From Armatimonadota bacterium (GTDB lineage Bacteria > Armatimonadota > UBA5829 > DTLH01), in assembly GCA_039679675.1 (NCBI GenBank), contig JBDKUN010000059.1:51105-115104 (forward strand): 64,000 nucleotides of DNA, written 5' to 3'. Position numbers and translations under genes: made by a program. Positions within the stretch are counted from its first letter, which is position 1. Each line of letters begins with the position of its first letter. The notes below the pieces were generated by a model. It was not told where the DNA came from. It saw only the letters and a list, made by a program, of their open reading frames with translations, and ran no database searches. Shown here one piece after another: positions 970 through 64,000 of this stretch.

Positions 970-1079
970 AACCAATTTGCAGATGCAATATCTTGACAGC
1001 CATTTGCACTTGGTTTACTATTCCACTAAGAATTGTTGGGATTCTAAGCCAAGGAGATAGTGCATATCATAAGGAGAAC

Positions 1080-1748: not shown

Positions 1749-1761
1749 GCTGTGAACTGTT

Positions 1762-2571: not shown

Positions 2572-2612
2572 TTAAATATCCTTGAGAAATTAGAATATAT
2601 TAACTAACTCTT

Positions 2613-3089: not shown

Positions 3090-3201
3090 ATCTATAAGGT
3101 TACCAGCTTTAAGTAGTACTAAACATGCTAAAAAATATCGGCAGCTATAATGCGTTCCATTGCTTGGCAATATGGCCTTGATCAAGTATCATGTACTCAC
3201 G

Positions 3202-5190: not shown

Positions 5191-5238
5191 TGAGATATCT
5201 ATCAGCCATACACGATATTCCAACTGTTTCTTTGGAGT

Positions 5239-5263
5239 GCGGAAGCATTAGCTTCCGCTTTTC
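5239..5263 (+). terminator. intrinsic terminator after uvrB
   Basis: GCGGAAGC-atta-GCTTCCGC followed by TTTTC. Confidence 0.65.
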
Positions 5264-5336
5264 TATCGATATTTTCTTCTGAATTGGTAAATAAACTAGA
5301 CTTTAACGTTCAATTTATAATTCCGGGAGGATAACC

Positions 5337-5684
5337 ATGCAAGAGATAATAGCAGCCTGTGGTCTGGTGTGCAGTAAATGTGGGGCTTACATTGCGACTA
5401 AAGCAAACGATGCCGAGGCCATAGAGAATGTCGCAAAAGAGTGGTCATCGCAGTTTGGGGCGGATATTAAGCCGGAGGTGGTGTGGTGCGACGGATGCAT
5501 GACCGATGGCAGCCGGAAGTGCGGGCATGTCGGTGAGTGTCAAATTCGCGCATGCGCAATCGAACGTGGATTAGTAAATTGTGCAGGTTGTGCAGACTTC
5601 GGGTGCGGGAAGATCAGTGAACTTCTTAACGCAGCCCCAGAAGCATGTGAGACAATGGAGAAACTGCGGAATTCAAACAAATAG
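5337..5684 (+). CDS. DUF3795-like cysteine-rich protein
   Basis: GGGAGGA RBS precedes the start. The cysteine pattern CGLVCSKCGAY...WCDGC...C...C..C..C matches my recollection of DUF3795. Confidence 0.65.
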   Translation: MQEIIAACGLVCSKCGAYIATKANDAEAIENVAKEWSSQFGADIKPEVVWCDGCMTDGSRKCGHVGECQIRACAIERGLVNCAGCADFGCGKISELLNAAPEACETMEKLRNSNK

Positions 5685-5695
5685 TAAATTACTGA

Positions 5696-5718
5696 GGGGG
5701 ATGCGTGTTACATCCCCC
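5696..5718. terminator. bidirectional hairpin between convergent genes
   Basis: GGGGGATG-cgtgtta-CATCCCCC lies between the stops of 5337..5684 (+) and 5728..7161 (-). Confidence 0.55.
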
Positions 5719-5727
5719 AACATATTA

Positions 5728-7161
5728 CTATGCAGCTTCAGGTTTCTGTTTTTGATCGCCTTTTTTAGGCTCAGCCGCATTATTGGATTTTACGATTTCC
5801 ACAAAAAGATCGACCAGTTCAGGGTCGAATTGAGTCCCGGCGCAGCGTTTGATCTCTTCCAGCGCATCTTCCCTGGAAAGCGCATTGCGGTAAGTTCTGT
5901 CCGAGATCATGGCGTCATAGGCATCAGCCAGACCTATTATCCGGGCAATCAGCGGGATATTCTTTCCTGAAAGCCCGTTAGGGTATCCCAGCCCATCGTA
6001 TCTCTCATGATGATGCCTCACTGCAGGGACTATTGAACTCAATTGCTGGACCTTCTCAAGTATTTCTGAACCAATCTTGGGATGCTCCTCTATCATCTGC
6101 CATTCGTCCATCTTTAGAGGACCCGGCTTATGAAGTATGGATTCAGGTGTACTGATCTTACCTATGTCATGAAGAAGAGCAGCGGCCTTAAGGTTCTCGA
6201 TCTCCGTAGGAGATAACCCCAACTTATCGGCAAGTGCAAGCGAATAGCGAGTTACCGCGTCGGAATGACCCTTAGTGAACCGGTCTTTTGCGTCTACTGC
6301 GGCTGACAGTGCTTCGATGGCATCCATGGGCTTGTCCACTAAAAGCGCCTTCACTGTATCGGATGTAGTGCGGTATGATTGCTTGAAAGACTCTTCATAG
6401 ATAAGAGCTTTGTTTTTACCTGTTCGCTTTGCGTAATATAACGCAGTATCGGCGTTAAGTATGATATTATGGCGAGTCTTGCCATGATCGGGATACGCAG
6501 CGATACCTGCACTGACCGTAACTGAAGCCACGCCCGGGAATTTGAGCGACGCGTCACGCTCCAATACCCCTCTTATCCTGTCTGCGACAACCTTTGCTTC
6601 ATCAGCTCCTGCCTCAGGAAGTATTACAACAAATTCTTCGCCGCCATATCGAGCAAGAATATCTATAGTACGTATGTTATCACGGCATATCTCGCCGAAC
6701 CAACTTAGCAGCCGGTCGCCTTCCTGGTGGCCCCGGCGATCATTGAATGCCTTGAAATCATCGAGATCGAACATAGCAAGAGACAGACGCCTGCCGTAAC
6801 GCTGCGCCCGCTCTATCTCCGCTGTTAACCTGTCCTGGAAATAGCGGTGATTATAACAGCTTGTCAGTCCATCAACATTCGCTTTCATTTCTGCCCGCTT
6901 GCGGAAGTAGACCTGGCGGTCGAACAGGTAGCCGGTAGTGACGGAAAGCCCTGTAATCCCGCAAACCCAGGCAATGAATGTAAATGGATGGCGCGGCAGG
7001 ATCTGTTCGAGCTGCAGTAATAGACACGGCAGCGGTTTTTGCCCCATCGCAGCAGACTCTGCGGAATATCCCCACACACCAATCGCATAGCTCAATACCG
7101 CAAATAGCATTCCCGTGAAGTAGGATATAACCCTGAATGTCATTTTCGGACCATTGTCCAT
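5728..7161 (-). CDS. membrane-associated diguanylate cyclase (GGDEF) fused to HD-GYP phosphodiesterase
   Basis: RTIDILARYGGEEF gives an RxxD I-site plus GGEEF. HDIGK and HHERYDGLGYP give the HD-GYP domain. The N-terminus is hydrophobic. The ORF is open to a TTG at 7209, and ATGs at 7161 or 7143 are alternative starts. Confidence 0.85.
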   Translation of the reverse strand: MDNGPKMTFRVISYFTGMLFAVLSYAIGVWGYSAESAAMGQKPLPCLLLQLEQILPRHPFTFIAWVCGITGLSVTTGYLFDRQVYFRKRAEMKANVDGLTSCYNHRYFQDRLTAEIERAQRYGRRLSLAMFDLDDFKAFNDRRGHQEGDRLLSWFGEICRDNIRTIDILARYGGEEFVVILPEAGADEAKVVADRIRGVLERDASLKFPGVASVTVSAGIAAYPDHGKTRHNIILNADTALYYAKRTGKNKALIYEESFKQSYRTTSDTVKALLVDKPMDAIEALSAAVDAKDRFTKGHSDAVTRYSLALADKLGLSPTEIENLKAAALLHDIGKISTPESILHKPGPLKMDEWQMIEEHPKIGSEILEKVQQLSSIVPAVRHHHERYDGLGYPNGLSGKNIPLIARIIGLADAYDAMISDRTYRNALSREDALEEIKRCAGTQFDPELVDLFVEIVKSNNAAEPKKGDQKQKPEAA

Positions 7162-53548: not shown

Positions 53549-54736
53549 TTATCCACGCCAGAGCGATAGATATACTGTCTCGTTATCTTTATTGGGCACG
53601 GTGACTTTCTTTGTCACGGTCTCGGATGTCTTGGGGTCCGTTATTTCTGCATCATAGGTCTGCCCGCCTGCAATTATGAAGTCGCGGGAGCCATCAACTG
53701 TGTCCTGTGCGACTGTTTTACCGCCGAGCTTCAAAGCCACTTTTGCTTTGAACGATTTGCCATCCCCATTTACCAGGTCGAATTTAACGCTTCGCCTGTG
53801 GATATAGAAATCGGTCACGTTTTCAGCATATACATCGCGGACGCTGTATCTCCATGCCGGAGGGAAGCACGTATCCGTCCTTTTAAACGATATGGCAAAA
53901 ACCGCGTATTCCGGTTTGGTTGGGTCGATTTTGGACACCCTATCGGTAAACCATGCCGTATCAAGATTGTTCGGCTCTCCGGCGCCGATGTATCTCCACT
54001 CATGAGTCCAGACTTCAGACCAGCAGTGGTTTTCAGGCTTGCCATCCCAGCAAAGTACGCCAACGACCCTCGATGGAATACCTACAGCACGGCAGGCATC
54101 GGTAATCAGGATCGAAAGGCTGGAGCATGACGCATAACCTATCTCGATGGACTCGTAAGGGCTCTGATTAGGCTTGCGGCACTTGGTAGCATGGTATTGT
54201 ACGTTAAAGGTCTTGAATACCTCTACGTTGAGCTTCTGCACGGCATCTTCCATCGTCTTGCAGTCTTTGACCATTACGCTGAACCGGTCGTAAAAGTCTT
54301 TCCGCCAATTGTCCCGCCTCTCGGTGAGGTTTGAATAGGGCAAAACATCGTTCAGGAAGAGGTCTTCGGGAACATCCTTGCCCCAAGGCATCGTTTTGCG
54401 GGCTTTGTAGGCGTACTCTACATCATCTACAAGGTAGTCCTTCTTCAGAGATACAAGATCGTCTTTCGCCATGTTGACGATGAGGAACTCCATAGCTTTC
54501 CGGTGTTTCGGATTCACAGCCTTAAGCGCTGCTTCGAGCTGGCAGCGATTGTTTCCTGCTTCTTCAAGAGCCTTTTCGAGATTTCTTGTACCTTTACTGG
54601 CAGCCACAGCCGCCGACGATTCTTTCTGGTCTATATTCATATTTACTGCTTTTTTCGATGCTGCGGATACAACGCCAGTGATAACAACGCTGAGCACTGT
54701 CACGACAACCACAGCGAGAGTAGTGATACGACGCAC
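53549..54736 (-). CDS. secreted transglutaminase-like cysteine protease-fold protein
   Basis: Signal peptide present. The core is GYASCSSLSILITDACRAVGIPSRVVG...NHCWSEVW (Cys and His of the transglutaminase triad). Confidence 0.75.
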   Translation of the reverse strand: MRRITTLAVVVVTVLSVVITGVVSAASKKAVNMNIDQKESSAAVAASKGTRNLEKALEEAGNNRCQLEAALKAVNPKHRKAMEFLIVNMAKDDLVSLKKDYLVDDVEYAYKARKTMPWGKDVPEDLFLNDVLPYSNLTERRDNWRKDFYDRFSVMVKDCKTMEDAVQKLNVEVFKTFNVQYHATKCRKPNQSPYESIEIGYASCSSLSILITDACRAVGIPSRVVGVLCWDGKPENHCWSEVWTHEWRYIGAGEPNNLDTAWFTDRVSKIDPTKPEYAVFAISFKRTDTCFPPAWRYSVRDVYAENVTDFYIHRRSVKFDLVNGDGKSFKAKVALKLGGKTVAQDTVDGSRDFIIAGGQTYDAEITDPKTSETVTKKVTVPNKDNETVYLSLWRG

Positions 54737-54771
54737 TCTATTGCCTCCTATTATAATATTTCCGGTCGTAT

Positions 54772-55950
54772 TTATACTTTCTCATTCATTTCTTTAAAAA
54801 GACGGCTTCCGATCATAAGGGCTCTCGGCAGGTGGAAACATCCTTTCCACTTTCCGCCCTTCAGGCTCAAATGAGGTTCGCCCTGGCGGTTCAGATAACC
54901 GAACCACTCGCCGTACTCTGCGTCCGGGAACCTCTGCCATGCGTAGTCATGGACCTTCTTATACCAGTCCCAGCACTCTTTTCTGCCGGTCAGGTGATAG
55001 CCCATCGCCATAGCGATTAGCGTTTCAAGGTGTACCCACCACAGTTTCTGGTCCCATTCCAGCTGCTGGGTCGGCCTGCCCTTCGTGTCCATGAAGTAGA
55101 AAATGCCGCCGTATTTCTCATCCCATGCATAGTTCAGGATACTGAGCGCAACATCCGTGCACCTGTTGACGAGAGCAGTGTCATTTCTCTTATGGGCTAT
55201 GTCCATGATGAACCACATGCCCTCGATGCCATGTCCCGGATTGATGAGCCTGCCATCGAAGCAGTCGATATGCTTTGCATCAGGGGTTACATACTCGAAA
55301 ATGAGCCCCATGTCCCTATCTACAAAGTCATTCATGACCTCTTCTATTATACCAGTGAGCGTGCTTTTAGTATAATCGGCTGGAAGCATCCATTCCATCT
55401 CCGAGAACAAGCTAGAGATCATCATAGGGAGCGCGAATGCCTTCATGGGCCGTGTGCCGGGGTATGCTTTTGTGTATTTGCCTTTAGGATTGTCTTTGCG
55501 TCTCAGAACATTATCGAATGCCTGCTTTGCTATTGTTTTTGCTTCCTCATTGCCGCTTGCGAGAGCATACTGGCTGAATGCCATTGCTGCAAAACAGTCG
55601 GAAAGCACGTTATACGGCTGTACCAGCGGGTCCCCCGCCCTATCAAGCGCAAAATACCAGTCGCCGTTCTCATCCTTTCCGTGCTTTCTGAGGAAATCCG
55701 CGCCATGTCTGGCTGTTTCCAGCCATTCGGACCGTTTTTCGAACCTGTTGTAGAGCACAGAGAACATCCATGTCTCCCGGCACTGAAGCCAGATAAACTT
55801 ATCCGTATCATACACGCTGCCGTCGCGGTCAAGGCAGGTAAAATAACCTCCGCACTCTTTATCTATAGAGTGGTTCATCCAGAATGGCAGAACATCGTCC
55901 AGAAGCGTATCAGTATAGAGCTTCTGCAGCTTTGCAAGCTCGTCTTTCAT
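54772..55950 (-). CDS. AGE-family (N-acylglucosamine 2-epimerase-like) epimerase/isomerase
   Basis: AGGAGA lies 5 nt before the ATG at 55950. (alpha/alpha)6-barrel repeats with the W/F/H-rich motifs of the AGE family ([41 protein letters not shown]). Confidence 0.75.
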
Positions 55951-56144
55951 CCAAATCTCCTGTCGTTTTAACAAAAACTGCTGTATGGTCCCTCGATTAC
56001 ATCAATATGTATAGCACATTCCGGTGGAAAGGTCTATCTGCATGTTCAAGCAAAGCGGCAGGTGGGTAAGAAGCAATCGTACTTACGGCGTTGCAGCCAA
56101 CCGGCTATTGGCCGGGTATTTCGACTTGCAAGGAGTGAACGGAT

Positions 56145-56765
56145 ATGCGCGCGCTCGTTATTCTATTGGTCTTCCTAATCCCGGCGATAATAATCGGATG
56201 CGGCAGCAGCGTGGATCAAGATACCGTGGTAAATATAAGAGACAATGCGTTCGATCCAACTACCCTGACTGTCTCTCCCGGCACTACCGTAAGGTTCACC
56301 AATTCCGACAACACCACCCACACAATTGTTAGCGGCAGCCTGACTGCTACGAGCAGCCCGCAAACTATATCTGTCAGCTTGCTAGATACTCAGTTTTCGA
56401 GAAGCACCCTTACGGTACATCTCAACGATACTGTGAGGTTTGTTAATGCGAGCAACAGCAACAGACAGATAGAAGTGAAAGATAATAGCAACCTTGATGT
56501 AGTCTATCTCACGCCTGTGCTGGCGCCGCAGGAATCAAATGACTTTAGAACAACTGCAACCGGAATATTCCAAGTGCGAGACGCTAGTAATGCTGCGGTC
56601 CAGATGACTCTTACGGTAGAAGGAGTGCCTAACCCTGATGGGCGTTTTTCCAGCAGCGTTCTCGCCCCAGGAGAGCACTTCGAGTTCCAGTTCAATACAG
56701 CGGGTGAGTTCCCGTTCTTCTGCGGGCAGCATAACATAGAACAAGGGACGATAGTCGTAGAATAA
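56145..56765 (+). CDS. cupredoxin-like lipoprotein with atypical copper-site loop
   Basis: Lipobox IIGC. N-terminal TVRFTNSDNTTHTIV and C-terminal FPFFCGQHNIEQGTIVVE resemble amicyanin/plastocyanin-type cupredoxins. Confidence 0.6.
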   Translation: MRALVILLVFLIPAIIIGCGSSVDQDTVVNIRDNAFDPTTLTVSPGTTVRFTNSDNTTHTIVSGSLTATSSPQTISVSLLDTQFSRSTLTVHLNDTVRFVNASNSNRQIEVKDNSNLDVVYLTPVLAPQESNDFRTTATGIFQVRDASNAAVQMTLTVEGVPNPDGRFSSSVLAPGEHFEFQFNTAGEFPFFCGQHNIEQGTIVVE

Positions 56766-56963
56766 TGATGTGAAGTTTCGACATTTTGAGATTCTTCACT
56801 TTTACAGAGCAGTAGTGGCTGTGTGCGCTTACCACTTATTTGCTTCCACGCAGATAAACAATCTGCACGGTTAATATGTAAGTCAAATCCCCGTCTTTTA
56901 ACACTATGTCTATACTGCTCCTGGCCAGGCAATTGTTTCTTCAATATTTGAAAGGTCTATAAT

Positions 56964-57956
56964 ATGCTGAAAGGGTTGTATATACTCGATAAGGGCTTTA
57001 TTAATGTTATCTACGGCCCAACCGAGATGGCTGACATCGCCCGGCTGATAAACATCTACATGCCGCCGCTGACTGCACAGGATGTGAAGAATGACCCGTC
57101 CGTACTCAAAGATGCGGATGTAATTATGTCCGGCTGGGGCTGCATTCCCATGACAAAAGACATTCTTGACGCAGCGCCGAACTTGAAAGCCGTGTTTTAC
57201 GGAGCAGGGTCAATAAAAAGTATCACTACTGAAGATTTTTGGGACCGGGGTATTGTGATAACAAGCGGATACGCTGCAAACGGTATCCCAGTAGCCGAGT
57301 ATACTCTCTCCCAGGTCATATTCTGCCTGAAATCCGGCTGGAGGTTCGCTCAATCCATTCGCGAACAGAAAAACAATAAGGCACAATTCCCAATATACGG
57401 CGCATACGGCAGCACTGTGGGGATAATATCGCTCGGAATGGTCGGCAGGAAAGTCTGCGAACTGCTCAAAAATCTCGATGTCAATGTCATCTGCTGCGAC
57501 CCGTTTGCCGATGACAATACAGCAGCCGAACTCGGAGTCACATTATGCACTCTTGAAGAAGTATTCAGCAAGTCACACGTCGTATCGCTCCACACGCCGC
57601 TTCTGGAACAGACCAGAGGGATGATCCGCAGCGAGCATTTCGAAATGATGAAGCCGTATTCAAGTTTCATCAACACTTCGAGAGGCGCAGTCATCCGCGA
57701 AAACGAGATGATCGAAGTCCTGAAGAAAAGGCCGGACATACAGGCGGTGCTGGACGTCACTTCACCTGAGCCGCCAGCCCCTGATTCTCCGCTCTATGAT
57801 CTACCGAATGTGGTTCTAACCCCGCACATCGCCGGATCGAAAGACGATGAATGCAGGCGGATGGGACGTTACATGGTGGAAGAACTGGAACGCTACCTGC
57901 GCGACGAAAAGCTCCTATGGGAAATAACCCGGCAGATGGCCGGCACACTTGCTTGA
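56964..57956 (+). CDS. D-isomer-specific 2-hydroxyacid dehydrogenase family protein
   Basis: NAD-binding motif IISLGMVGRKV, plus SLHTPL, FINTSRG and LDV...EP...P..NV.LTPHIAG. Confidence 0.8.
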   Translation: MLKGLYILDKGFINVIYGPTEMADIARLINIYMPPLTAQDVKNDPSVLKDADVIMSGWGCIPMTKDILDAAPNLKAVFYGAGSIKSITTEDFWDRGIVITSGYAANGIPVAEYTLSQVIFCLKSGWRFAQSIREQKNNKAQFPIYGAYGSTVGIISLGMVGRKVCELLKNLDVNVICCDPFADDNTAAELGVTLCTLEEVFSKSHVVSLHTPLLEQTRGMIRSEHFEMMKPYSSFINTSRGAVIRENEMIEVLKKRPDIQAVLDVTSPEPPAPDSPLYDLPNVVLTPHIAGSKDDECRRMGRYMVEELERYLRDEKLLWEITRQMAGTLA

Positions 57957-57963
57957 AAGGGCT

Positions 57964-58728
57964 ATGCAGATGCTCTCGACCGGTTTGGTTTCCGTAACTT
58001 TCAGACAGCTTTCCCCGTTTGAAATAGTAAACCTGGTAAAGCAGGCGGGACTAGACTCAATCGAATGGGGCGGTGACATACACATTCCTCACGGCGATAT
58101 AGCGAGAGCTCGTGAAGTCGGCAAAATTACTGCCGATGCCGGACTCAAGGTAGCATGTTACGGTTCTTACTATCGCTTGGGGCAGGACGAGAACACTCCA
58201 TTCGACGAAATACTAGAAACAGCGCTTGCATGCGGCGCGCCGCTCATAAGAGTCTGGGCAGGAAGCAAAAAGTCCATAGATGCAGATGAATCCTGCAGAG
58301 AGTCCGTCATAGCAGACGCTCGCAGGATCTGTGACGCTGCTCAATCGGCAGGAATATCGATTACAGTCGAGCACCACTGTGATACGCTCGCTGACACTGT
58401 AGCTTCATCGCTGCGGTTGATGAAGGAAGTGGATCATTCGGCCATCAGGATCAATTGGCAACCGCAGATCGGCGTCTCGACGGATGATTGCGTTGCCGGC
58501 CTTAAAAGCATGCTCTCCTGGCTGAGTAATGTCCACGTGTTCCAATGGATAAAGTCCTATTCCGACAGGTACCCGCTTGCGGATGGCGAAGAAGCTTGGA
58601 AGCGATGCATAGCTGCTGTGGTATCGAGCGGACGCGGCCACTGTTTTCTTATCGAATTTGTTGCTGGTGACACCCCTGAAGCATTTCTGCGCGATGCTGC
58701 GGATCTTCGGCGGTGGGTGACAAAATAA
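57964..58728 (+). CDS. sugar phosphate isomerase/epimerase (TIM barrel)
   Basis: The ATG at 57964 lies just after the upstream stop. Motifs LDSIEWGGD, IRVWAG and ITVEHHCDT fit the xylose-isomerase-like family. Confidence 0.65.
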   Translation: MQMLSTGLVSVTFRQLSPFEIVNLVKQAGLDSIEWGGDIHIPHGDIARAREVGKITADAGLKVACYGSYYRLGQDENTPFDEILETALACGAPLIRVWAGSKKSIDADESCRESVIADARRICDAAQSAGISITVEHHCDTLADTVASSLRLMKEVDHSAIRINWQPQIGVSTDDCVAGLKSMLSWLSNVHVFQWIKSYSDRYPLADGEEAWKRCIAAVVSSGRGHCFLIEFVAGDTPEAFLRDAADLRRWVTK

Positions 58729-58732
58729 AATA

Positions 58733-58765
58733 GCCCGGAAGTATATTTCAGCCTCCGGGCTTTTT
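58733..58765. terminator. bidirectional terminator between convergent genes
   Basis: GCCCGGA..TCCGGGC followed by TTTTT on the plus strand and ATTTTATTTT on the minus strand. Confidence 0.6.
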
Positions 58766-58777
58766 ACTTATCTGGTT

Positions 58778-60553
58778 TTATTTGACCAGTTCTTCTACAA
58801 TCTCGTCGGAGGTTTTCTCCGATACAGGATATTTCTTTCGCTTCGTGTATTGCGTGTGCAGAAGTTCATGCGACTTGTGGCCGAGCGGCTTGCCGAGGAA
58901 CTCCTCGTAAAGCGCGATTACGGCCGGGTTCTCATGCGATTTGCGGATCGGAAGATTCGCGTCCTCGTCGTAGATACCCTTCATACGGGCCTTGCGGACC
59001 TCGTCGGTCGTCGGAATCGGTTGTCCGCCTCCTCCAAGACATCCGCCGGGGCAGCACATGATCTCGATGAAGTGGTAATCGGCCTCTCCGGCAGCGATCT
59101 TATCCATCAGCTTCCTTGCATTGGAAAGTCCGCTCGCAACAGCTACTTTCACGTCCAGATCGCCGACCTTTACTGTCGCTTCCTTGACTCCTTCGAGCCC
59201 GCGGACGTCCATGAAGTCCACGTTTTCGAGAGTTTTGCCGGTTACGACTTCGTATACGGTCCTTAGAGCCGCTTCCATAACGCCGCCGGTCGCTCCGAAG
59301 ATGACTGCCGCGCCGGTCGATATGCCAAGCGGGTCGTCGAACTTGCCATCCGGCAGTTTCGCGAAGTCGAGGCCCATCTCGCGGATCATTTTGCCCGCTT
59401 CACGGGTCGTCAAGACCGCGTCGATGTCCGGTATGCCGTTATTGACCGTCATTTCAGCCCTTCCGGCCTCAAATTTCTTGGCCGTGCAGGGCATGATCGA
59501 GACGACATATATGTCTTCCGGTTTGACACCGATCTTATCGGCATAGTAGGTCTTGGCAAGAGCACCGAACATCTGCTGCGGGCTCTTGCAGCTCGATAGA
59601 TGCGGCAGAAGGTCGGGATAGAAGTGCTCGATGAACTTGATCCATCCCGGCGAGCAGGATGTTATCATCGGGAGCGTTCCACCCGTCTGTAGCCGCTGAA
59701 GGAGCTCATTTCCTTCTTCTAAGATCGTAAGGTCCGCAGTGAAGTCGGTGTCGAACACCTTGTCGAACCCCATAGCGCGAAGAGCCGTGACCATTTTGCC
59801 CGTCACTCTCGACCCCGGAGCCATTCCGAACTCTTCACCTATCGCAACACGGACGGCAGGAGCGGTCTGGACTACTACGTGCTTGTTCGGGTCGGCGAGT
59901 GCCTTCCAGACAGCTTCCGTAGAATCTCGCTCATGTAGCGCGTTCACCGGGCAGACACTTACGCACTGCCCACAGAGGACGCACGCAACGTCGTTCAGGT
60001 CTTTTTTGAGCGCCGGGGTTACGACTGTGTCGAATCCGCGTTCCATAGTGAAAAGCGCTCCGACACCCTGCACCTGCTGGCACACGGTCACGCACCTTCG
60101 GCACAGGATACACTTGCTGCTGTCGCGGACAATCGCCGGGGATGATGTGTCCACAAGTGACGGCGGCATCTCTCCCTCGAACCTGGACTGCTGGATTCCG
60201 AGCTGTTTTGCGACCTGCTGCAGCTCGCAGTTAAGGCTTCGTCCGCAGGTTGTGCATTCCTGCCTGTGGGCAGAAAGCATCAGCTCCACTACGGTCCTTC
60301 GTGCAGCCCGGACCCTCGGAGTATTCGTCTTGACGACGATTCCTTCTGCTGCGGGATATACACAGGATGCCTGAAGTCCGCGCGCTTTTTCGATCTCTAC
60401 GAGGCATACCCTACATGCCCCGATTGCATGCACATCCTTAAGGTAGCACAAGGTCGGAATGCCTATTCCTACGGACCTTGCAGCCTCAAGGACGGTCGTG
60501 CCATTCGGCACAGTCACTTGCATACCGTCTATAGTTAAGGTTACGTTCTCCAT
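58778..60553 (-). CDS. hydA: [FeFe]-hydrogenase catalytic subunit (HydA, multimeric group A type)
   Basis: N-terminal 2Fe-2S ferredoxin-like domain, a His-ligated cluster region and 2x[4Fe-4S] (CILCRRCVTVC, CVLCGQCVSVCP). H-domain motifs TSCSPGW, MPCTAKKFE, EIMCCPGGCLGGGGQP. C-terminal small-subunit-like tail. Confidence 0.9.
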   Translation of the reverse strand: MENVTLTIDGMQVTVPNGTTVLEAARSVGIGIPTLCYLKDVHAIGACRVCLVEIEKARGLQASCVYPAAEGIVVKTNTPRVRAARRTVVELMLSAHRQECTTCGRSLNCELQQVAKQLGIQQSRFEGEMPPSLVDTSSPAIVRDSSKCILCRRCVTVCQQVQGVGALFTMERGFDTVVTPALKKDLNDVACVLCGQCVSVCPVNALHERDSTEAVWKALADPNKHVVVQTAPAVRVAIGEEFGMAPGSRVTGKMVTALRAMGFDKVFDTDFTADLTILEEGNELLQRLQTGGTLPMITSCSPGWIKFIEHFYPDLLPHLSSCKSPQQMFGALAKTYYADKIGVKPEDIYVVSIMPCTAKKFEAGRAEMTVNNGIPDIDAVLTTREAGKMIREMGLDFAKLPDGKFDDPLGISTGAAVIFGATGGVMEAALRTVYEVVTGKTLENVDFMDVRGLEGVKEATVKVGDLDVKVAVASGLSNARKLMDKIAAGEADYHFIEIMCCPGGCLGGGGQPIPTTDEVRKARMKGIYDEDANLPIRKSHENPAVIALYEEFLGKPLGHKSHELLHTQYTKRKKYPVSEKTSDEIVEELVK

Positions 60554-60556
60554 TGC

Positions 60557-63500
60557 TTATTTCGCCTCCAAGCTACACGCATCGCAGCGCAGGCATCTGT
60601 TGGCCTCTTTAATAGCCTCATCTCTGGAGAATCCAAGCTCCACCTCCGTGGTTCTCGTTCTCTCCGACACCGCAATCACCGGCATCTTGGCCCTCGGTGT
60701 CTCGACTATGTCGTCGGCATCCTCAGGAGGGGCCGGAATTGTGATGTCCTCGACATCCGACGGAATCTCGCCGGTCCCGCCCAGGTATTTGTCGATTCCC
60801 TGAGCAGCTTTGATACCGGCTCCGATGGCCTCGATTACCGTTGCGGGTCCTGTGACCACATCGCCTCCGGCAAAGATGCCGTTAGCTGAGGTCATTGCGC
60901 TCTGCCTGTCGATCCAGACCTTGCCGCGCTTCGTTTCGACGGTATTGCCGCCGAGGTAGCCCAGTTCCGGCTCCTGGCTGATAGCCGAGATGACGGAATC
61001 CACTGGAATGTCGATAAATGCGCCTTCGATAGCCTTCGGGCTTCGGCGTCCGCTCTTGTCGAACTCCCTAAGCTCCAGAAGCTGGCATCTGAGCGTCTTG
61101 ACCTTGCCGTTCTCGCCGACGGCCTCTATCGGAGCAGCCAGGAACTTGATCTTGACTCCCTCGACTTCAGCTTCGTGGATCTCATGCGGATCGGCAGGCA
61201 TATCTTCCCGCAGTCTTCGATAAACGATGGTGACGTTCTTCGCGCCGAGCCTTACGGCTGTTCTCGCGGCGTCGATGGCAGCGTTTCCGCCGCCGACTAC
61301 GGCCACGTTCTCGCCGACGTCGATCTTTTCGCCCATCTGAACGTCGCGCAGGAACTTGAGCGAATCGAATACGCCCTTCTGTTCCTCACCGGGAATCTCC
61401 AGCGTCCAGCTCTTGTCTGCGCCGGTCCCGATGAAGATTGCATCGAAGTCCTTCTTGATCGTTTCCATCGGAATGTCTTTTCCGACTCTGGTGTTGGTCT
61501 TGATCGTGACTCCGAGGTTCTCGATAGCCTTGATCTCCTGCCTGAGCACGGCCTTCGGCAGCCTGTATTCGGGAATTCCCCAAACGAGCATACCGCCGGC
61601 TTCAGGAAGTGCCTCAAAAACGGTCGGGCTGTGGCCCATTCTTGCCAGGTGATAAGCAGCCGTAAGTCCTGCAGGCCCGCCGCCGATGATGGCGACCTTC
61701 TTGCCGGTCTTTTCAGCTCTCATCTTGACCTGAGGCAGCTTGTGGTCTTTGAACTCCTGGTCCGCAACGTATCTCTTCAGGTTGCGGATAGAGAGCGGCT
61801 CGTCGACCTGGCTTCTCCGGCACTTGTCCTCGCACAGAGCGTTGCATACGCGTCCGCACACCGCTGCAAACGGGTTGTGATCGCGGACGATTCTGAGGGC
61901 ATCGGTGAACCTTCGCTGAGAAATGAGCGCAAGATACTTCGGAACGCTCGTTCCGGCCGGGCATGTGTGGGCACATGGGGCCTCGAAGAGCGAGTTACAC
62001 ACGCACGCAGGGCACTTCTTGTCCCTGATGTGCGCTTCATACTCGTGCCTGAAGTACTTGAGGGTGGAAAGCACCGGGTTCGGAGCTGTCTGACCGAGTC
62101 CGCAGAGCGCAGAGTCCTTGATCCTCTGTCCGAGTTCTTCGAGTAGCTCGATATCGCCTTCCTTGCCCTGTCCGTGAGCAATCCGGTCGAGGATCTCAAG
62201 CATCCTCTTCGTTCCAACGCGGCACGGGGTGCACTTTCCGCACGATTCATCCTGGATGAAGTCGAGGAAGAACCGTGCAAGGTCGACCATACAGGTCCCC
62301 TCGTCCATGATGATAAGTCCGCCTGAACCCATCATTGCGCCGAGTTCGATCAGCGAATCGTAGTCCATCGGGACGTTCAGGTGCTCTTTCGGAATACATC
62401 CGCCGGAAGGCCCACCGGCCTGTGCAGCCTTGAACTTCTTCCCGCCTCGGATGCCGCCGCCGATGTCGTAGATGATCGTTCCGAGGTCTGTTCCCATCGG
62501 GACTTCCACAAGACCGGTGTTGTTGATATTTCCGGCAAGCGCGAAGATTTTTGTTCCCTTGCTCTTCTCGGTCCCGATCTGTGCGTACTCCTCTGCACCC
62601 ATTCTGATGATGAGCGGGATGTTTCCGTAGGTCTCGACGTTGTTCAGAACGGTCGGGCTCATCCAGAGTCCTGAATGAGCAGGGAACGGAGGTCTTGGGC
62701 GAGGTTCCCCTCGTTTACCTTCGATTGAGGCCATCAGGGCGGTCTCTTCACCGCAGACGAACGCTCCGGCGCCCATCCTTATCTCCAGGCTGAACTTGTG
62801 CCCGGTTCCGAGGACGTTATCTCCCAAAATGCCGTATTCTCTGGCCTGTTTGAGCGCATGGCTCAACCGCTCTATGGCAAGCGGATACTCTGCTCTTACA
62901 TATACATAACCGACGGATGCACCTATCGCGTAGCCGCCGATAATCATCCCCTCGATAACTGCATGAGGATCGCCTTCTAGAAGGCTTCTGTCCATAAACG
63001 CGCCGGGGTCGCCCTCGTCAGCGTTGCACAGGATGTATTTTTGTTCGCCTTGTGCGTCGGCTGCGAACTGCCACTTGAGCCCGGTGGGGAATCCACCACC
63101 ACCGCGACCGCGCAGCCCGCTCTTTTTAATTTCTTCGATGACATCCTTCGGAGTCATCTCCGTTAAGACTTTACCAAGTGCCGAATAGCCGTCCTTTGCT
63201 ATGTATTCATCGATATTTGCAGGGTCGATGACGCCGCAGTTGCTCAAGACGAGTTTCTTCTGCCTCTTGAAGAACGGCATCTCATCGATTGTGGTAACAG
63301 CACCTTCGCCGTGACCGTCATGGTGGAGCAGGTCTGTTACAACTCTACCTTTCAAGAGGTGCTCCTCGACGATCCTTACGGCATCTTCCGGTTTTAACTT
63401 CTTATAGAACGTCCCTTCAGGGGAGACGACGATGACAGGTCCGAGATGGCAGGCACCGATACAACCGGTTTGGATCACCTGAATCTCATCCTGCAGATTA

Positions 63501-63607
63501 TGTTTTTCAATCTCTTTTGTGAGGGTCTCTGCAACCGCATGGCAGCCGGATGATACGCAGCCGGCTCCAGCACAGACCAGCACGTGAGATCTATAAAGCT
63601 TTTCCAT
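60557..63607 (-). CDS. hydB: HydB/NuoF-like flavoprotein subunit fused in frame to a GltD/NfnB-like NAD(P)H-FAD oxidoreductase module
   Basis: AGGAGGA RBS before the ATG at 63607. The N-terminal part has a thioredoxin-like 2Fe-2S (VCAGAGCVSSGC..CIGAC), GRGGGGFPTG, ESCGKCTPCR and CPACVC..CAHTCP. The C-terminal part has GRVC..C..C, KKVAIIGGGPAGL, VAVVGGGNAAIDAART and GIFAGGD. It ends with RCLRCDAC. Confidence 0.88.
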   Translation of the reverse strand: MEKLYRSHVLVCAGAGCVSSGCHAVAETLTKEIEKHNLQDEIQVIQTGCIGACHLGPVIVVSPEGTFYKKLKPEDAVRIVEEHLLKGRVVTDLLHHDGHGEGAVTTIDEMPFFKRQKKLVLSNCGVIDPANIDEYIAKDGYSALGKVLTEMTPKDVIEEIKKSGLRGRGGGGFPTGLKWQFAADAQGEQKYILCNADEGDPGAFMDRSLLEGDPHAVIEGMIIGGYAIGASVGYVYVRAEYPLAIERLSHALKQAREYGILGDNVLGTGHKFSLEIRMGAGAFVCGEETALMASIEGKRGEPRPRPPFPAHSGLWMSPTVLNNVETYGNIPLIIRMGAEEYAQIGTEKSKGTKIFALAGNINNTGLVEVPMGTDLGTIIYDIGGGIRGGKKFKAAQAGGPSGGCIPKEHLNVPMDYDSLIELGAMMGSGGLIIMDEGTCMVDLARFFLDFIQDESCGKCTPCRVGTKRMLEILDRIAHGQGKEGDIELLEELGQRIKDSALCGLGQTAPNPVLSTLKYFRHEYEAHIRDKKCPACVCNSLFEAPCAHTCPAGTSVPKYLALISQRRFTDALRIVRDHNPFAAVCGRVCNALCEDKCRRSQVDEPLSIRNLKRYVADQEFKDHKLPQVKMRAEKTGKKVAIIGGGPAGLTAAYHLARMGHSPTVFEALPEAGGMLVWGIPEYRLPKAVLRQEIKAIENLGVTIKTNTRVGKDIPMETIKKDFDAIFIGTGADKSWTLEIPGEEQKGVFDSLKFLRDVQMGEKIDVGENVAVVGGGNAAIDAARTAVRLGAKNVTIVYRRLREDMPADPHEIHEAEVEGVKIKFLAAPIEAVGENGKVKTLRCQLLELREFDKSGRRSPKAIEGAFIDIPVDSVISAISQEPELGYLGGNTVETKRGKVWIDRQSAMTSANGIFAGGDVVTGPATVIEAIGAGIKAAQGIDKYLGGTGEIPSDVEDITIPAPPEDADDIVETPRAKMPVIAVSERTRTTEVELGFSRDEAIKEANRCLRCDACSLEAK

Positions 63608-63645
63608 TTGCTTTTGTCTGATCCTCCTGGGTAAATTAGCCGCTA

Positions 63646-64000
63646 CTAGCTGCCATTCTTCTTGTATTTCGCAATTATGCTGGGAATCTTGTCCAGCTTC
63701 ACCCTGCGGTAGATATCCGCGCCGATGGTGACGACCGGAGCAAGTCCGCAGGCCCCTACACACCTGTTGATCTCAAGCGAGAACTGACGGTCATCCGTAG
63801 TTCCGCCGATTCCAATCTTCAGCTCTTTTTCGAGCTGCTCTAATATCTGCTTACCGCCACGCACATAGCAAGCGGTTCCGAGGCATACCCTTATGGTATG
63901 CTGACCACGCGGAACAGTGTTAAAGAACGAGTAGAACGTTATTACTCCGTAGACTTCGGAGAGAGAAATGCCAAGTCCCTCGGCGACCTTCACCTGCACC
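63646..64000 (-). CDS. hydC: HydC/NuoE-like 2Fe-2S subunit, N-terminus outside window
   Basis: IRVCLGTACYVRG...NRCVGACGLAPVV is the NuoE thioredoxin-like 2Fe-2S motif. The ORF is open to the window edge. Confidence 0.85.
   Translation of the reverse strand, partial: VQVKVAEGLGISLSEVYGVITFYSFFNTVPRGQHTIRVCLGTACYVRGGKQILEQLEKELKIGIGGTTDDRQFSLEINRCVGACGLAPVVTIGADIYRRVKLDKIPSIIAKYKKNGS

What the first reader, a model, noticed from the sequence alone, without database searches (positions are those of the whole stretch)
58778..64000. HydABC-type [FeFe]-hydrogenase in which the NuoF-like subunit is fused to a full GltD/NfnB-type NAD(P)H oxidoreductase
Seen: three tightly packed minus-strand genes, with a 38-nt gap between hydC and hydB and a 3-nt gap between hydB and hydA. 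The middle ORF is 1016 aa (63607..60557). It is continuous, beginning as a standard HydB/NuoF with a thioredoxin-like 2Fe-2S, the GRGGGGFPTG FMN site, the ESCGKCTPCR cluster and CPACVC..CAHTCP. From about coordinate 62017 downward it becomes a complete glutamate-synthase-small-subunit-like module (GRVC..C..C cluster region, KKVAIIGGGPAGL FAD fold, VAVVGGGNAAIDAART second dinucleotide fold, GIFAGGD). It ends with a CxxCxxC triad five residues before the stop. Established: HydABC enzymes couple H2 with NAD(H) and ferredoxin by flavin-based bifurcation. GltD/NfnB modules carry FAD and bind NADPH. GltD-like partners have been noted for one [FeFe] subgroup ('glutamate-synthase-linked'). Inference: this complex would possess two distinct pyridine-nucleotide flavin sites on one polypeptide. 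It could link H2 to NADH and NADPH simultaneously, as a hydrogenase-transhydrogenase hybrid, or use NADPH in place of ferredoxin. No hydE/F/G maturase genes are in the window.
Basis: partly seen in the sequence, partly recalled or inferred. Interest (0 to 1): 0.7.

Follow-up and report, generated by a model that had tools for sequence, protein, structure and literature searches.

The report
Hydrogenase with NuoF–GltD fused subunit
This is a real, widely conserved three-gene [FeFe]-hydrogenase whose NADH-binding subunit carries an NADPH/FAD module where the ferredoxin-reducing domain normally sits; the layout was noted in genomes in 2024, but nobody has tested what it does.

Summary
On the minus strand lie hydC (cut by the window end), a continuous 1016-aa hydB::gltD gene (60557-63607) and hydA (58778-60553).

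The fusion is not an assembly artefact. More than 120 protein clusters (59-93% identical, about 1010-1020 aa) have the same architecture. The junction occurs in genomes of more than 15 phyla, and every cofactor ligand is invariant.

- 'CPAxVC' is the HydB hinge (B2/Zn) site. The GltD module starts at PC545xxxC549P.
- The C-terminal 'CxxCxxC' is not an extra cluster. C1005 and C1008 are the displaced first two ligands of the GltD distal [4Fe-4S]. The module is circularly permuted, exactly as in the StnC/NfnA subunits of Bfu-type transhydrogenases. C1011 is not conserved.

The FAD-proximal cluster has the Stn-type Lys ligand (K611), not the NfnB Glu. The NADPH signature (GGGNAAIDAAR...YRR...MPA) is invariant.

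Zheng & Huang (mSystems 2024) already described this architecture as 'sub-type I BfuB', from sequence only.

Most likely function (inferred): H2 is coupled to NAD(H) at FMN and to NADP(H) at FAD, with NADP(H) taking ferredoxin's place. The same fused core also pairs with formate-dehydrogenase-like and other partner subunits elsewhere.

The parts
63646..64000 (-). hydC (bfuC), NuoE/HoxE-like thioredoxin-fold [2Fe-2S] subunit. The N-terminus lies beyond the window end.
   Evidence: Pfam 2Fe-2S_thioredx 2.3e-39, NCBIfam HoxE/NuoE. Homologous loci carry a 160-197 aa hydC directly upstream of the fused gene.
60557..63607 (-). hydB::gltD (bfuB sub-type I), 1016 aa, one continuous reading frame.
   Evidence: AlphaFold2 mean pLDDT 87.5, pTM 0.85.
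63326..63592 (-). N-terminal thioredoxin-like [2Fe-2S] domain of HydB (cluster B5 in Bfu nomenclature). Ligands C12, C17, C49, C53.
   Evidence: Pfam 6-82. The four Cys are invariant in 72 close homologues and present in 26/28 hydrogenase-linked fusions.
62027..63226 (-). NuoF core: FMN/NAD(H) site (GRGGGGFPTG 167-176, GEETAL E287/E288), SLBB domain, and the [4Fe-4S] B1 cluster (C456, C459, C462, C502).
   Evidence: Pfam/NCBIfam. 66% identical to A. woodii HydB 7q4v_B with TM 0.85. Ligands invariant.
61997..62032 (-). B2 / Zn 'hinge' motif H526-x5-C532-PA-x-V-C537, retained from bifurcating-type HydB. C535 is an unconserved extra Cys.
   Evidence: Aligns column for column with A. woodii, T. 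kivui, StnB and NfnB 'EYEAHIRDKKCPAxxC'. H526, C532 and C537 are invariant and C535 is variable. The Zn-hinge role comes from PMC9499530.
61745..61978 (-). Fe-S domain of the GltD cassette (Fer4_20). It starts at PC545xxxC549P and includes C584/C588/C592/C596 and K611.
   Evidence: Pfam 529-621. Alignment to Csac NfnA 9bov_A, StnC 8oh5_C and Tm NfnB 4ylf_B starts at residue 543/544. K611 aligns with StnC K170 / NfnA K170, the ligand of the FAD-proximal cluster. Invariance.
60776..61702 (-). FAD fold (GGGPAGL 642-648, E665, R682, GGD 914-916) and NADP(H) fold (GGGNAAIDAAR 772-782, Y796-R797-R798, M803-P804-A805).
   Evidence: Pfam Pyr_redox_2 636-931. The motifs are invariant in all 64 fused proteins whatever the partner subunit. 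They align with the NADPH-specific enzymes StnC, NfnA and NfnB.
60578..60694 (-). Permuted tail (residues 972-1010) ending in R1004-C1005-L-R-C1008. It corresponds to the N-terminal helix plus 'RCLxC' of NfnB/GltD and supplies two ligands of the distal [4Fe-4S].
   Evidence: Aligns with T. maritima NfnB residues 15-43, and with StnC/NfnA residues about 530-568, which follow the FAD domain there too. C1005 and C1008 are invariant, C1011 is not. pLDDT is about 90 for 971-1010 and 39 for 1011-1016.
58778..60553 (-). hydA (bfuA), 591 aa, M3-type [FeFe]-hydrogenase: [2Fe-2S], His-ligated [4Fe-4S], 2x[4Fe-4S], and the H-cluster domain (about 58838-59884) with TSCSPGW, MPCTAKKFE and EIMCCPGGCLGGGGQP.
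   Evidence: Pfam/NCBIfam. Best solved relative is A. woodii HydA1 7q4v_A (737 bits, full length, same P1 motif).

Best explanation
WHAT IT IS. A genuine operon, hydC-hydB::gltD-hydA, encodes a heterotrimeric [FeFe]-hydrogenase of the NuoE/NuoF-based 'Bfu' family. It matches the variant called sub-type I by Zheng & Huang (2024).

SHOWN:
- HydA is a complete H-cluster subunit.
- HydB keeps the N-terminal [2Fe-2S] (B5), the FMN/NAD(H) site, the [4Fe-4S] next to FMN (B1) and the His/Cys hinge site (B2).
- The 60-residue 2x[4Fe-4S] ferredoxin-reducing domain (B3/B4) of canonical bifurcating HydB is replaced by a 470-residue GltD cassette. The cassette carries two [4Fe-4S] clusters, FAD and an NADPH-type dinucleotide fold.
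- The cassette is the circularly permuted, Lys-liganded version found in the A subunits of the Stn/NfnABC transhydrogenases. It is not the NfnB/GltD version.

INFERRED MECHANISM:
- Electrons from the H-cluster run through the HydA clusters to B1 and FMN, as in A. woodii HydABC.
- At the FMN/B1/C1 site, one branch reduces NAD+.
- The other branch leaves by the HydC [2Fe-2S]/hinge region into the distal GltD cluster (C1005, C1008, C545, C596).
- It continues to the proximal cluster (C549, C588, C592, K611), then to FAD, and from there to NADP+.

NADP(H) therefore takes the place of ferredoxin as the low-potential partner. The overall reaction would be 2 H2 + NAD+ + NADP+ <-> NADH + NADPH + 2 H+.

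With in-vivo potentials of about -280 mV (NAD) and -380 mV (NADP), H2 at roughly 3-7000 Pa lies between the two couples. The coupling would then be a true bifurcation (H2 uptake that makes NADPH) or confurcation (NADH plus NADPH giving H2 up to about 10^2 Pa).

The FAD most likely acts as a plain two-electron NADP(H) entry/exit site, as in StnC, and not as a second bifurcating flavin.

Confidence is about 0.95 for identity and anatomy and about 0.45 for this specific mechanism.
For: Gene structure and domains.

The fusion is real and under selection:
- More than 120 clusters of about 1010-1020 aa at 59-93% identity carry the same Pfam set.
- A junction-specific scan gave 582 confirmed stretches. 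Of the 80 loci kept, about 70 hold the full junction, in more than 15 phyla.
- The fused ORF sits next to hydC in nearly all of them.
- All ligands of B1, B2 and both GltD clusters, plus the FAD and NADPH motifs, are invariant in 64 fused proteins and in 72 closer ones.

Module boundaries and permutation. Lys ligand: with PMC10482914 and PMC11829005.

In StnC and NfnA the same cassette is an NADPH site whose FAD does not bifurcate.

Deleting B3/B4 abolishes bifurcation in T. kivui HydABC, and B3/B4 are the route to ferredoxin. Their replacement therefore redirects that branch.

Canonical hydCBA trios lie beside fusion trios in L006, L013, L029, L032 and L072, which argues that the two types are not redundant.

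Structure: AF2 pTM 0.85 with a well-ordered tail. Foldseek finds the N-half equal to A. woodii HydB and the C-half equal to Csac NfnA/StnC/Tsi NfnA.

The potentials used are those quoted in PMC9304861.
Against: - No member of this sub-type has been purified or assayed. I found no such report in 8 literature searches.
- Sequence cannot tell whether ferredoxin still docks on the distal GltD cluster, as it does on NfnB.
- R682, the Arg that contacts FAD N5 in bifurcating NfnB, is conserved here as in both NfnB and StnC, so it does not discriminate.
- 'VC584GRVC' is NfnB-like rather than Stn-like.
- An ungated enzyme linking NADPH to NAD+ would short-circuit the cell's NADPH/NADH disequilibrium, so some gating has to be assumed.
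- I could not measure inter-cofactor distances in the model.
- The same fused core serves partners other than hydrogenase. In the short-A class a GltB-like protein follows, so in some contexts the cassette may pass electrons on to another protein rather than to NADP+.
Confidence: 0.55

Rival explanations
1. Four-substrate hybrid with two bifurcating flavins. Ferredoxin still binds at the distal GltD [4Fe-4S], as on NfnB. The FAD bifurcates like NfnB's L-FAD, and the FMN/B1/C1 site bifurcates as well. The complex would merge the HydABC and Nfn activities, linking H2, NAD(H), NADP(H) and Fd. This is essentially the proposal of Zheng & Huang 2024.
For: - The cassette is homologous to NfnB/NfnL (330 and 310 bits; rmsd 1.7 A to Pfu NfnL).
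- R682 and 'VCGRVC' are NfnB-like.
- The authors of PMC11406978 raise this possibility.
- The N-terminal [2Fe-2S] B5 is retained specifically in the hydrogenase-linked class. It could in principle serve as a second outlet from FAD.
Against: - The FAD-proximal cluster has the Stn/NfnABC-type Lys (invariant K611), not the NfnB Glu.
- The permuted topology is that of StnC/NfnA, where FAD sits at the end of a single electron path and was shown not to bifurcate.
- No NfnA/NfnS-like [2Fe-2S]/FAD partner gene lies in the operon, here or in related loci.
Confidence: 0.25
2. Uncoupled, non-bifurcating hydrogenase with dual nucleotide specificity. NADH (at FMN) or NADPH (at FAD) can each independently exchange electrons with the H-cluster, as in the non-bifurcating NADH-dependent HydAB(C) of syntrophs plus an added NADPH port.
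For: - Loss of B3/B4 is the hallmark of the non-bifurcating S. wolfei / S. aciditrophicus enzymes.
- Both nucleotide sites are intact.
Against: - HydB keeps the features that distinguish bifurcating from non-bifurcating beta subunits: the N-terminal [2Fe-2S] and the His/Cys hinge site. These are invariant.
- Its closest relative is the bifurcating A. woodii HydB at 66% identity.
- An uncoupled enzyme would act as a futile NADPH-to-NAD+ transhydrogenase.
Confidence: 0.15
3. Artefact or decayed fusion. An assembly indel joined separate nuoF-like and gltD-like genes, or the GltD part is a vestige that only supplies two Fe-S clusters.
For: Three of about 70 related loci show the gene split into two or three ORFs (L035, L045, L072). 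Frameshifts or assembly errors therefore do occur in this gene.
Against: - The continuous ORF recurs in more than 120 independent protein clusters and in 64 full-length genomic copies.
- The junction sequence itself is conserved.
- The FAD and NADPH glycine motifs and the YRR pair are invariant.
- AF2 gives a single confident fold.
Confidence: 0.02

Closest known systems
Sub-type I BfuABC [FeFe]-hydrogenase of Hydrogenedentota (Zheng & Huang, mSystems 2024, PMC11406978)
   Same: - The same architecture. The B3/B4 domain of BfuB is replaced by a DPD_II (2x[4Fe-4S]) domain plus a C-terminal FAD/NAD(P) domain.
- M3a-type HydA with Ser at the fifth position of P1.
- C-B-A gene cluster.
- Relatives noted in Spirochaetota, Planctomycetota, Verrucomicrobiota and others.
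   Different: - That work is purely genomic and proposes a second bifurcating FAD.
- It does not report the circular permutation, the Stn-type Lys ligand, or that the same fused core also serves Fdh-like and other partners.
- The closest named homologues of this window's protein are labelled Armatimonadota, not Hydrogenedentota. No BfuD gene is seen here.
Acetobacterium woodii / Thermoanaerobacter kivui / Thermotoga maritima HydABC (PDB 7q4v, 8a6t, 7p5h)
   Same: - HydA 737 bits over its full length, with identical P1/P2/P3 motifs.
- HydB residues 1-540 are 66% identical to A. woodii HydB, including B5, FMN, B1 and the hinge motif.
- A HydC partner is present.
   Different: The canonical enzymes end in a mobile 2x[4Fe-4S] domain (B3/B4) of about 60 residues that reduces ferredoxin. 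Here that domain is absent and a 470-residue FAD/NADPH cassette takes its place.
StnABC / NfnABC (Bfu-type transhydrogenases: S. ovata 8oh5, C. saccharolyticus 9bov/9bp5, T. sibiricus 9n5u)
   Same: - The GltD cassette is their type: 47% identical to Csac NfnA over 477 columns.
- The same permuted order (PCxxxCP ... FAD/NADPH ... EAxRCLxC).
- The same Lys ligand of the FAD-proximal cluster and the same NADPH motif.
- The same NuoE/NuoF-type core.
   Different: - There the cassette is inserted in the A subunit and feeds the mid-potential entry (via A clusters to B1).
- The B subunit there keeps B3/B4 and reduces ferredoxin, and there is no H-cluster.
- Here the cassette hangs on the B subunit, at the exit of the low-potential branch, and a hydrogenase occupies the A position.
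NfnAB / NfnSL large subunit (T. maritima 4ylf_B, P. furiosus 5jca_L) and glutamate synthase beta subunit GltD
   Same: The same fold and cofactors: two [4Fe-4S], FAD and NADPH (330, 310 and 221 bits).
   Different: - NfnB has the RCLxC segment at its N-terminus and a Glu cluster ligand.
- NfnB works with an NfnA/S partner, and its FAD is the bifurcating site.
- GltD docks on GltB.

Membership tests
Group A [FeFe]-hydrogenase catalytic subunit (HydA) | H-cluster domain with the three signature motifs P1 (TSC[CS]PxW), P2 (MPCxxKxxE) and P3 (ExMxCxxGCxxGGGQP) | tested here: met
   TSCSPGW, MPCTAKKFE and EIMCCPGGCLGGGGQP are present. Fe_hyd_lg_C 3e-103; NF040763 941 bits > 765.
Group A [FeFe]-hydrogenase catalytic subunit (HydA) | Maturases HydE/F/G available in the genome | not testable with these tools
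   None in the 64-kb window. The rest of the genome is not available.
Bfu family (BfuABC, Schut et al. 2022) | BfuB with FMN, [4Fe-4S] B1, the B2 His/Cys site and the N-terminal [2Fe-2S] B5 | tested here: met
   All ligands are present and invariant.
Bfu family (BfuABC, Schut et al. 2022) | C-terminal ferredoxin-like domain of BfuB carrying the B3 and B4 [4Fe-4S] clusters | tested here: not met
   Alignment to HydB/StnB/NfnB ends at about residue 540-550. From 544 on, the sequence is the GltD cassette. Two [4Fe-4S] clusters of a different fold take that place.
Bfu family (BfuABC, Schut et al. 2022) | BfuC (NuoE-like) with [2Fe-2S] C1 encoded alongside | tested here: met
   hydC at 63646..>64000, 2Fe-2S_thioredx 2.3e-39. 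It is adjacent in related loci.
Bfu family (BfuABC, Schut et al. 2022) | Coupled reduction of NAD+ and ferredoxin by the third substrate | not testable with these tools
   Needs enzyme assays.
Sub-type I BfuB (Zheng & Huang 2024) | B3/B4 domain replaced by DPD_II (Fer4_20) plus a C-terminal FAD/NAD(P)-binding domain, in a hydC-hydB-hydA cluster | tested here: met
   Fer4_20 529-621 and Pyr_redox_2 636-931. Gene order.
Stn/NfnABC-type GltD (NfnL-like) cassette | Permuted order, with the 'EAxRCLxC' segment after the FAD/NADPH domain | tested here: met
   The tail 972-1010 aligns with StnC about 530-566 and NfnA about 530-568, and with the N-terminus of Tm NfnB.
Stn/NfnABC-type GltD (NfnL-like) cassette | Lys ligand of the FAD-proximal [4Fe-4S] (StnC K170 / NfnA K170) | tested here: met
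   K611 aligns with it. It is invariant in 72 homologues and present in 60/64 fused proteins. The ligand's role is described.
Stn/NfnABC-type GltD (NfnL-like) cassette | Cassette inserted in the BfuA subunit, between the N-terminal [2Fe-2S] and the NuoG-like domains | tested here: not met
   Here it is appended to BfuB after the hinge motif. HydA has no GltD part.
NfnB/NfnL of NfnAB (NfnSL) | Glu ligand on the proximal cluster, N-terminal RCLxC, and a partner NfnA/S subunit | tested here: not met
   Lys instead of Glu, permuted order, and no NfnA-like gene in the operon.
HydDB [FeFe] group A2 ('glutamate-synthase-linked') | Classification of HydA by the HydDB classifier, and a GltD-like partner without a NuoE/NuoF core | not testable with these tools
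   No HydDB classifier was available. The context here is NuoE/NuoF (A3-like), and the closest HydA is the bifurcating A. woodii HydA1.

The most novel reading that the evidence does not exclude
The HydC + HydB::GltD pair may be a distinct, widespread 'NADP-type' Bfu core in which NADP(H) replaces ferredoxin as the low-potential leg of the FMN/Fe-S bifurcation site. Joined to HydA, it would give a ferredoxin-independent H2:NAD+/NADP+ bifurcating (or NADH+NADPH-confurcating) hydrogenase. The same core would plug into formate-dehydrogenase-like and GltB-like partners in other phyla. That would be a new reaction class for hydrogenases and a new way for anaerobes to set the NADPH/NADH ratio from H2 or formate.
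Probability: 0.35. Interest if true: 0.7.

Novelty: new member of a known kind. Interest (0 to 1): 0.45.

Why it matters
Electron-bifurcating hydrogenases set the energy budget of fermenters, syntrophs and acetogens. All characterised ones use ferredoxin as the low-potential partner.

Here the ferredoxin-reducing domain has been swapped for an NADPH flavin module. This variant is common in uncultured Armatimonadota, Chloroflexota, Desulfobacterota, Bacillota, Planctomycetota and others, and its reaction is unknown.

If NADP(H) really replaces ferredoxin, H2 metabolism would be wired directly to the anabolic NADPH pool. Models of redox balance in these organisms, and the definition of the Bfu family (which requires B3/B4), would need revising.

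If instead the variant proves to be a canonical Fd-dependent enzyme with an added NADPH port, it is a natural HydABC-Nfn fusion and a useful model for bifurcation studies.

The practical value of this window is modest, because it is one more example of a sub-type already recorded in 2024.

Tried and rejected
- Assembly or fusion artefact: rejected, because the continuous ORF and the junction sequence are conserved across many independent assemblies.
- Extra C-terminal Fe-S cluster from CxxCxxC: rejected. Only C1005 and C1008 are conserved. They align with the first two Cys of the NfnB/GltD motif, and the last six residues are disordered in the model.
- Defective H-cluster because P1 reads TSCSP: rejected. 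The active, structurally solved A. woodii HydA1 has the same TSCSPGW and SSCKSPQ, and the literature calls Ser the common state.
- Longer ORF starting at GTG 63763: rejected in favour of ATG 63607, on the RBS and the homologue N-termini.
- Looking up the window's own HydA in the contig index, to extend past the window end: no record. Context was taken from homologues instead.
- Promoter/terminator scan of 58500-64000: counts no higher than in shuffles, so uninformative.
- Literature searches for a biochemically characterised NuoF-GltD hydrogenase: none found. Schut 2022, Losey 2020, Liang 2019 and Baymann 2018 do not mention the fusion.
- Using the AF2 model to measure cluster-to-cluster distances: not possible, because model coordinates are not exposed to scripts.
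- Taxonomic assignment of the window: not pursued beyond the names of the closest homologues (Armatimonadota MAGs, 77-87% identity). Hydrogenase clusters are reported to be mobile, so this assignment is weak.

Full report
1. OBSERVATION.

The region holds three co-directional minus-strand genes:
- hydC, 63646 to beyond 64000; only the last 117 codons are visible.
- A long ORF, 60557-63607 (1016 aa from the ATG).
- hydA, 58778-60553 (591 aa).

The long frame stays open upstream to a GTG at 63763. However, the ATG at 63607 is preceded by AGGAGG, and 72 homologues begin at the equivalent Met (consensus MxxYRSHVLVCAGAGC).

Pfam divides the 1016-aa protein as follows:
- thioredoxin-like [2Fe-2S], residues 6-82
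- Complex1_51K, 160-331
- SLBB, 355-403
- NADH_4Fe-4S, 442-526
- Fer4_20, 529-621
- Pyr_redox_2, 636-931

NCBIfam gives nuoF_fam for 129-527 and the GltD-like PRK12771 for 496-1011, the latter above its cut-off. HydC is a NuoE/HoxE-type protein. HydA is a complete group A [FeFe]-hydrogenase. A heuristic scan found no radical-SAM or HydF-like ORF in the window.

2. THE FUSION IS REAL.

A search of 5.8 billion proteins returned more than 120 clusters at 59-93% identity. All are about 1010-1020 aa with the same Pfam set. They come from MAGs labelled Armatimonadota, Bacillota (including the isolate Thermanaeromonas toyohensis ToBE), Chloroflexota and Deltaproteobacteria.

I built an alignment of only the 89 residues that span the junction and scanned one genome per GTDB species with it. 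Of the 80 loci kept, about 70 carry the whole junction, in more than 15 phyla.

ORF calling plus phmmer on those loci showed a single ORF of about 1000-1060 aa with both halves in 64 cases. hydC lies directly upstream in nearly all of them. Only three loci (L035, L045, L072) have the gene broken. It can only be revived for this contig by read-level data.

3. WHERE ONE MODULE ENDS AND THE OTHER BEGINS.

The stretch 'EYEAHIRDKKCPACVCNSL' aligns column for column with 'EYEAHIRDKKCPAGVCKHL' of A. woodii HydB. It also aligns with the same motif in T. kivui HydB, S. ovata StnB and C. saccharolyticus NfnB. [quoted passage not shown] It binds Zn in T. maritima HydABC and was proposed to act as the hinge for the mobile C-terminal domain (PMC9499530). 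It is modelled as a [2Fe-2S] in the A. mobile NiFe enzyme. H526, C532 and C537 are invariant. C535, which makes the motif look like CxxCxC here, is not.

All GltD-type structures begin to align at residue 543/544, 'PC545AHTC549P'. The junction is therefore at about residue 540-544 (coordinates about 61978-61990).

4. THE C-TERMINAL TRIAD IS A SIGN OF CIRCULAR PERMUTATION.

In the alignment with T. maritima NfnB (4ylf_B), HMMER reports two segments:
- NfnB residues 46-461 align with fusion residues 544-944.
- NfnB residues 15-43 ('...EVALGYTLEEALEEAQRCLQC') align with the extreme C-terminus of the fusion ('SERTRTTEVELGFSRDEAIKEANRCLRCD').

The same order is found in StnC of S. ovata (residues 102-566), NfnA of C. 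saccharolyticus (9bov_A, 102-568) and NfnA of T. sibiricus (9n5u_A). That order is Fe-S motif half, then FAD/NADPH folds, then a linker, then 'EAxRCLxC'. In those proteins the cassette is inserted into the A subunit.

By homology with DPD/NfnB-type cluster ligation, I infer these ligand sets:
- The distal [4Fe-4S] is held by C1005, C1008, C545 and C596.
- The FAD-proximal cluster is held by C549, C588, C592 and K611.

C1005 and C1008 are invariant. The third Cys of the 'triad' (C1011) is replaced by R/K/E in nearly all relatives. In the AlphaFold2 model (mean pLDDT 87.5, pTM 0.85), residues 971-1010 have pLDDT of about 90, while 1011-1016 score 39. The triad is therefore not an extra cluster.

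5. WHICH KIND OF GltD MODULE.

Bit scores rank Csac NfnA (449) above Tsi NfnA (400), StnC (386), Tm NfnB (330), Pfu NfnL (310) and true GltD (221). Foldseek gives 47% identity to Csac NfnA over 477 columns.

K611 aligns with K170 of StnC and NfnA. That Lys ligates the FAD-proximal cluster, is strictly conserved in Stn/NfnABC, and is a Glu in NfnB. K611 is invariant in 72 close homologues and present in 60 of 64 diverse fused proteins.

The NADPH fold (GGGNAAIDAAR 772-782, Y796-R797-R798, M803-P804) and the FAD fold are invariant in all 64. They match the experimentally NADPH-specific StnC, NfnA and NfnB.

At the FMN site, the GEETAL glutamates of NADH-specific NuoF proteins are invariant. Their role in NADH specificity rests on my own recollection of the complex I literature and was not checked here.

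R682 corresponds to NfnB R201 / StnC R239. It is conserved in both bifurcating and non-bifurcating relatives, so it tells nothing. One NfnB-like trait is the first Cys of 'VC584GRVC', which StnC and NfnA lack.

6. WHAT WAS REPLACED.

Canonical bifurcating HydB ends in a 2x[4Fe-4S] domain (B3/B4) of about 60 residues. That domain swings on the hinge and reduces ferredoxin. Deleting it in T. kivui HydABC abolishes bifurcation.

In this protein that domain is absent, and the GltD cassette follows the hinge after only 8 residues (C537 to C545). The rest of HydB has the features of bifurcating rather than non-bifurcating beta subunits: the N-terminal [2Fe-2S], the hinge site, and 66% identity to A. 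woodii HydB. No PDB chain covers both halves (best query TM 0.51).

7. MECHANISM (INFERENCE).

The simplest reading is that the low-potential outlet of the FMN/B1/C1 site now leads through two [4Fe-4S] clusters to FAD and NADP(H) instead of to ferredoxin. The potentials quoted in PMC9304861 are NAD about -280 mV, NADP about -380 mV, and H2 -414 mV at 1 bar. H2 shifts by about +30 mV per ten-fold dilution.

On these figures H2 at roughly 3-7000 Pa lies between the two nucleotide couples:
- Splitting H2 electrons between NAD+ (downhill) and NADP+ (uphill) would be a genuine bifurcation.
- The reverse reaction would let NADPH pull NADH oxidation to H2 up to about 150 Pa. This compares with about 3 Pa for NADH alone and about 0.15 bar with ferredoxin.

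Because the cassette is the Stn type, I favour FAD as an ordinary NADP(H) port rather than a second bifurcating flavin.

The rivals are:
- A four-substrate HydABC/Nfn hybrid in which ferredoxin still docks and FAD bifurcates, as Zheng & Huang propose.
- An uncoupled enzyme with dual nucleotide specificity.

Sequence alone cannot decide among the three, and an ungated enzyme would waste the NADPH/NADH disequilibrium. I put the main mechanism at about 0.45, the hybrid at about 0.25 and the uncoupled form at about 0.15.

8. WHAT IS KNOWN.

Zheng & Huang (mSystems 2024) classified the BfuABC hydrogenases of Hydrogenedentota into five sub-types. [quoted passage not shown] They note that such coexistence 'has never been reported', and they list relatives in several phyla. 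They also report that Ser at the fifth P1 position is the common state, as here.

The JBC 2025 paper on T. sibiricus NfnABC remarks that NfnL-like domains occur in proteins annotated as FeFe hydrogenase group A and formate dehydrogenase. I found no biochemical or structural study of the fused enzyme.

The window's operon is therefore a new member of a recorded but uncharacterised sub-type. As far as I can tell, the following points are not in that paper:
- the permuted Stn-type nature of the cassette
- the explanation of the C-terminal Cys pair
- the Lys ligand
- the residue-level invariance across phyla
- the partner diversity described in section 9

9. BEYOND THE HYDROGENASE.

Among the 80 genomic loci, the fused core sits next to different partners:
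- An H-cluster HydA in 26 loci.
- A molybdo/tungstopterin formate-dehydrogenase-like A subunit in 22. Some of these ORFs stop where a selenocysteine codon is expected, for example L010 and L021.
- A short Fer2_4-only A subunit in 17.

In two of the short-A loci that I checked (L061, L071), the next gene encodes a protein of about 530 aa with the glutamate-synthase FMN-domain signature PF01645.

A Pirellulaceae MAG fuses HydC as well, giving 1286 aa (L068). Canonical hydCBA trios lie beside fusion trios in several loci. A 79%-identical homologue on a 3.78-Mb contig is followed by a second, short nuoF-like gene and a second hydA. The N-terminal [2Fe-2S] ligands are kept in the hydrogenase class (26/28) but often lost in the other classes.

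The fused HydB::GltD plus HydC unit thus behaves as a general redox core, not as a hydrogenase-specific oddity.

10. VERDICT.

Interest is moderate. A specialist would not be surprised that the sub-type exists, but its reaction is an open and directly testable question.

Noticed in passing
window 59620-59660 and about 59590-59610 (HydA residues about 299-322): The HydA P1 motif reads TSCSPGW, with Ser where C. pasteurianum CpI has the second Cys. 'SSCKSPQ' has Cys where CpI has Ala. A. woodii HydA1 (7q4v_A) has exactly the same pair, so this is a normal variant of A3-type enzymes. Which Cys ligates the [4Fe-4S]H subcluster in this variant was not examined.
   Followed up: partly
L004, L008, L014, L020, L042, L044, L052 (A subunits of about 830-930 aa); L010 7501-8613, L021 7516-8592: The same HydC + HydB::GltD core is encoded next to molybdo/tungstopterin formate-dehydrogenase-like A subunits in Dehalococcoidia, Desulfobacterota and others. 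In L010 and L021 the A-subunit ORF stops about 80 residues into the Molybdopterin domain, as expected for a selenocysteine TGA.
   Followed up: partly
L061 7545-9883; L071 7581-9876: In Aminicenantes and Zixibacteria MAGs the fused core is followed by a short (about 230 aa) Fer2_4-type A subunit. Next comes a protein of about 530 aa with the glutamate-synthase FMN-domain signature (PF01645). This suggests a third, GltB-like partner class of unknown reaction.
   Followed up: partly
L068 3685-7542: A Pirellulaceae MAG encodes a triple fusion, HydC::HydB::GltD (1286 aa).
   Followed up: no
L001 14921-17979 (homologue locus, 3.78-Mb contig): Directly after the fusion-type hydCBA trio lies a second pair: a 444-aa NuoF-like gene without the N-terminal [2Fe-2S] or any C-terminal Fe-S domain, and a 580-aa hydA. 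A 350-aa radical-SAM gene is nearby. The window itself has no such second pair.
   Followed up: no
alignment of 64 fused proteins (positions C12/C17 of the window protein): Two Cys of the N-terminal [2Fe-2S] (B5) are kept in 26/28 hydrogenase-linked fusions. They are kept in only 12/19 Fdh-linked and 5-6/14 short-A-linked fusions.
   Followed up: partly
L052 1504-3699: One Dehalococcoidia locus carries a second GltD module, in a 732-aa protein with Fer2_4, NuoG-type Fe-S and GltD parts (PRK12814/Stn-like). It lies just upstream of hydC and the fused hydB.
   Followed up: no
window 53549-58728: The genes flanking the operon look unrelated to hydrogen metabolism, and the nearest one converges on hydA with a 49-nt spacer. 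From their translations they are:
- a secreted protein (53549-54736)
- an N-acylglucosamine-2-epimerase-like protein (54772-55974)
- a small cupredoxin-like lipoprotein (56145-56765)
- a D-2-hydroxyacid-dehydrogenase-like protein (56964-57956)
- a sugar-phosphate isomerase/epimerase-like protein (57949-58728)
These names are from reading the sequences only and were not checked with profile searches.
   Followed up: no
window 63608-63763: The hydB frame is open for 52 codons upstream of the real start and overlaps the 3' end of hydC. An automatic caller could mis-annotate a 1068-aa product starting at GTG 63763.
   Followed up: yes
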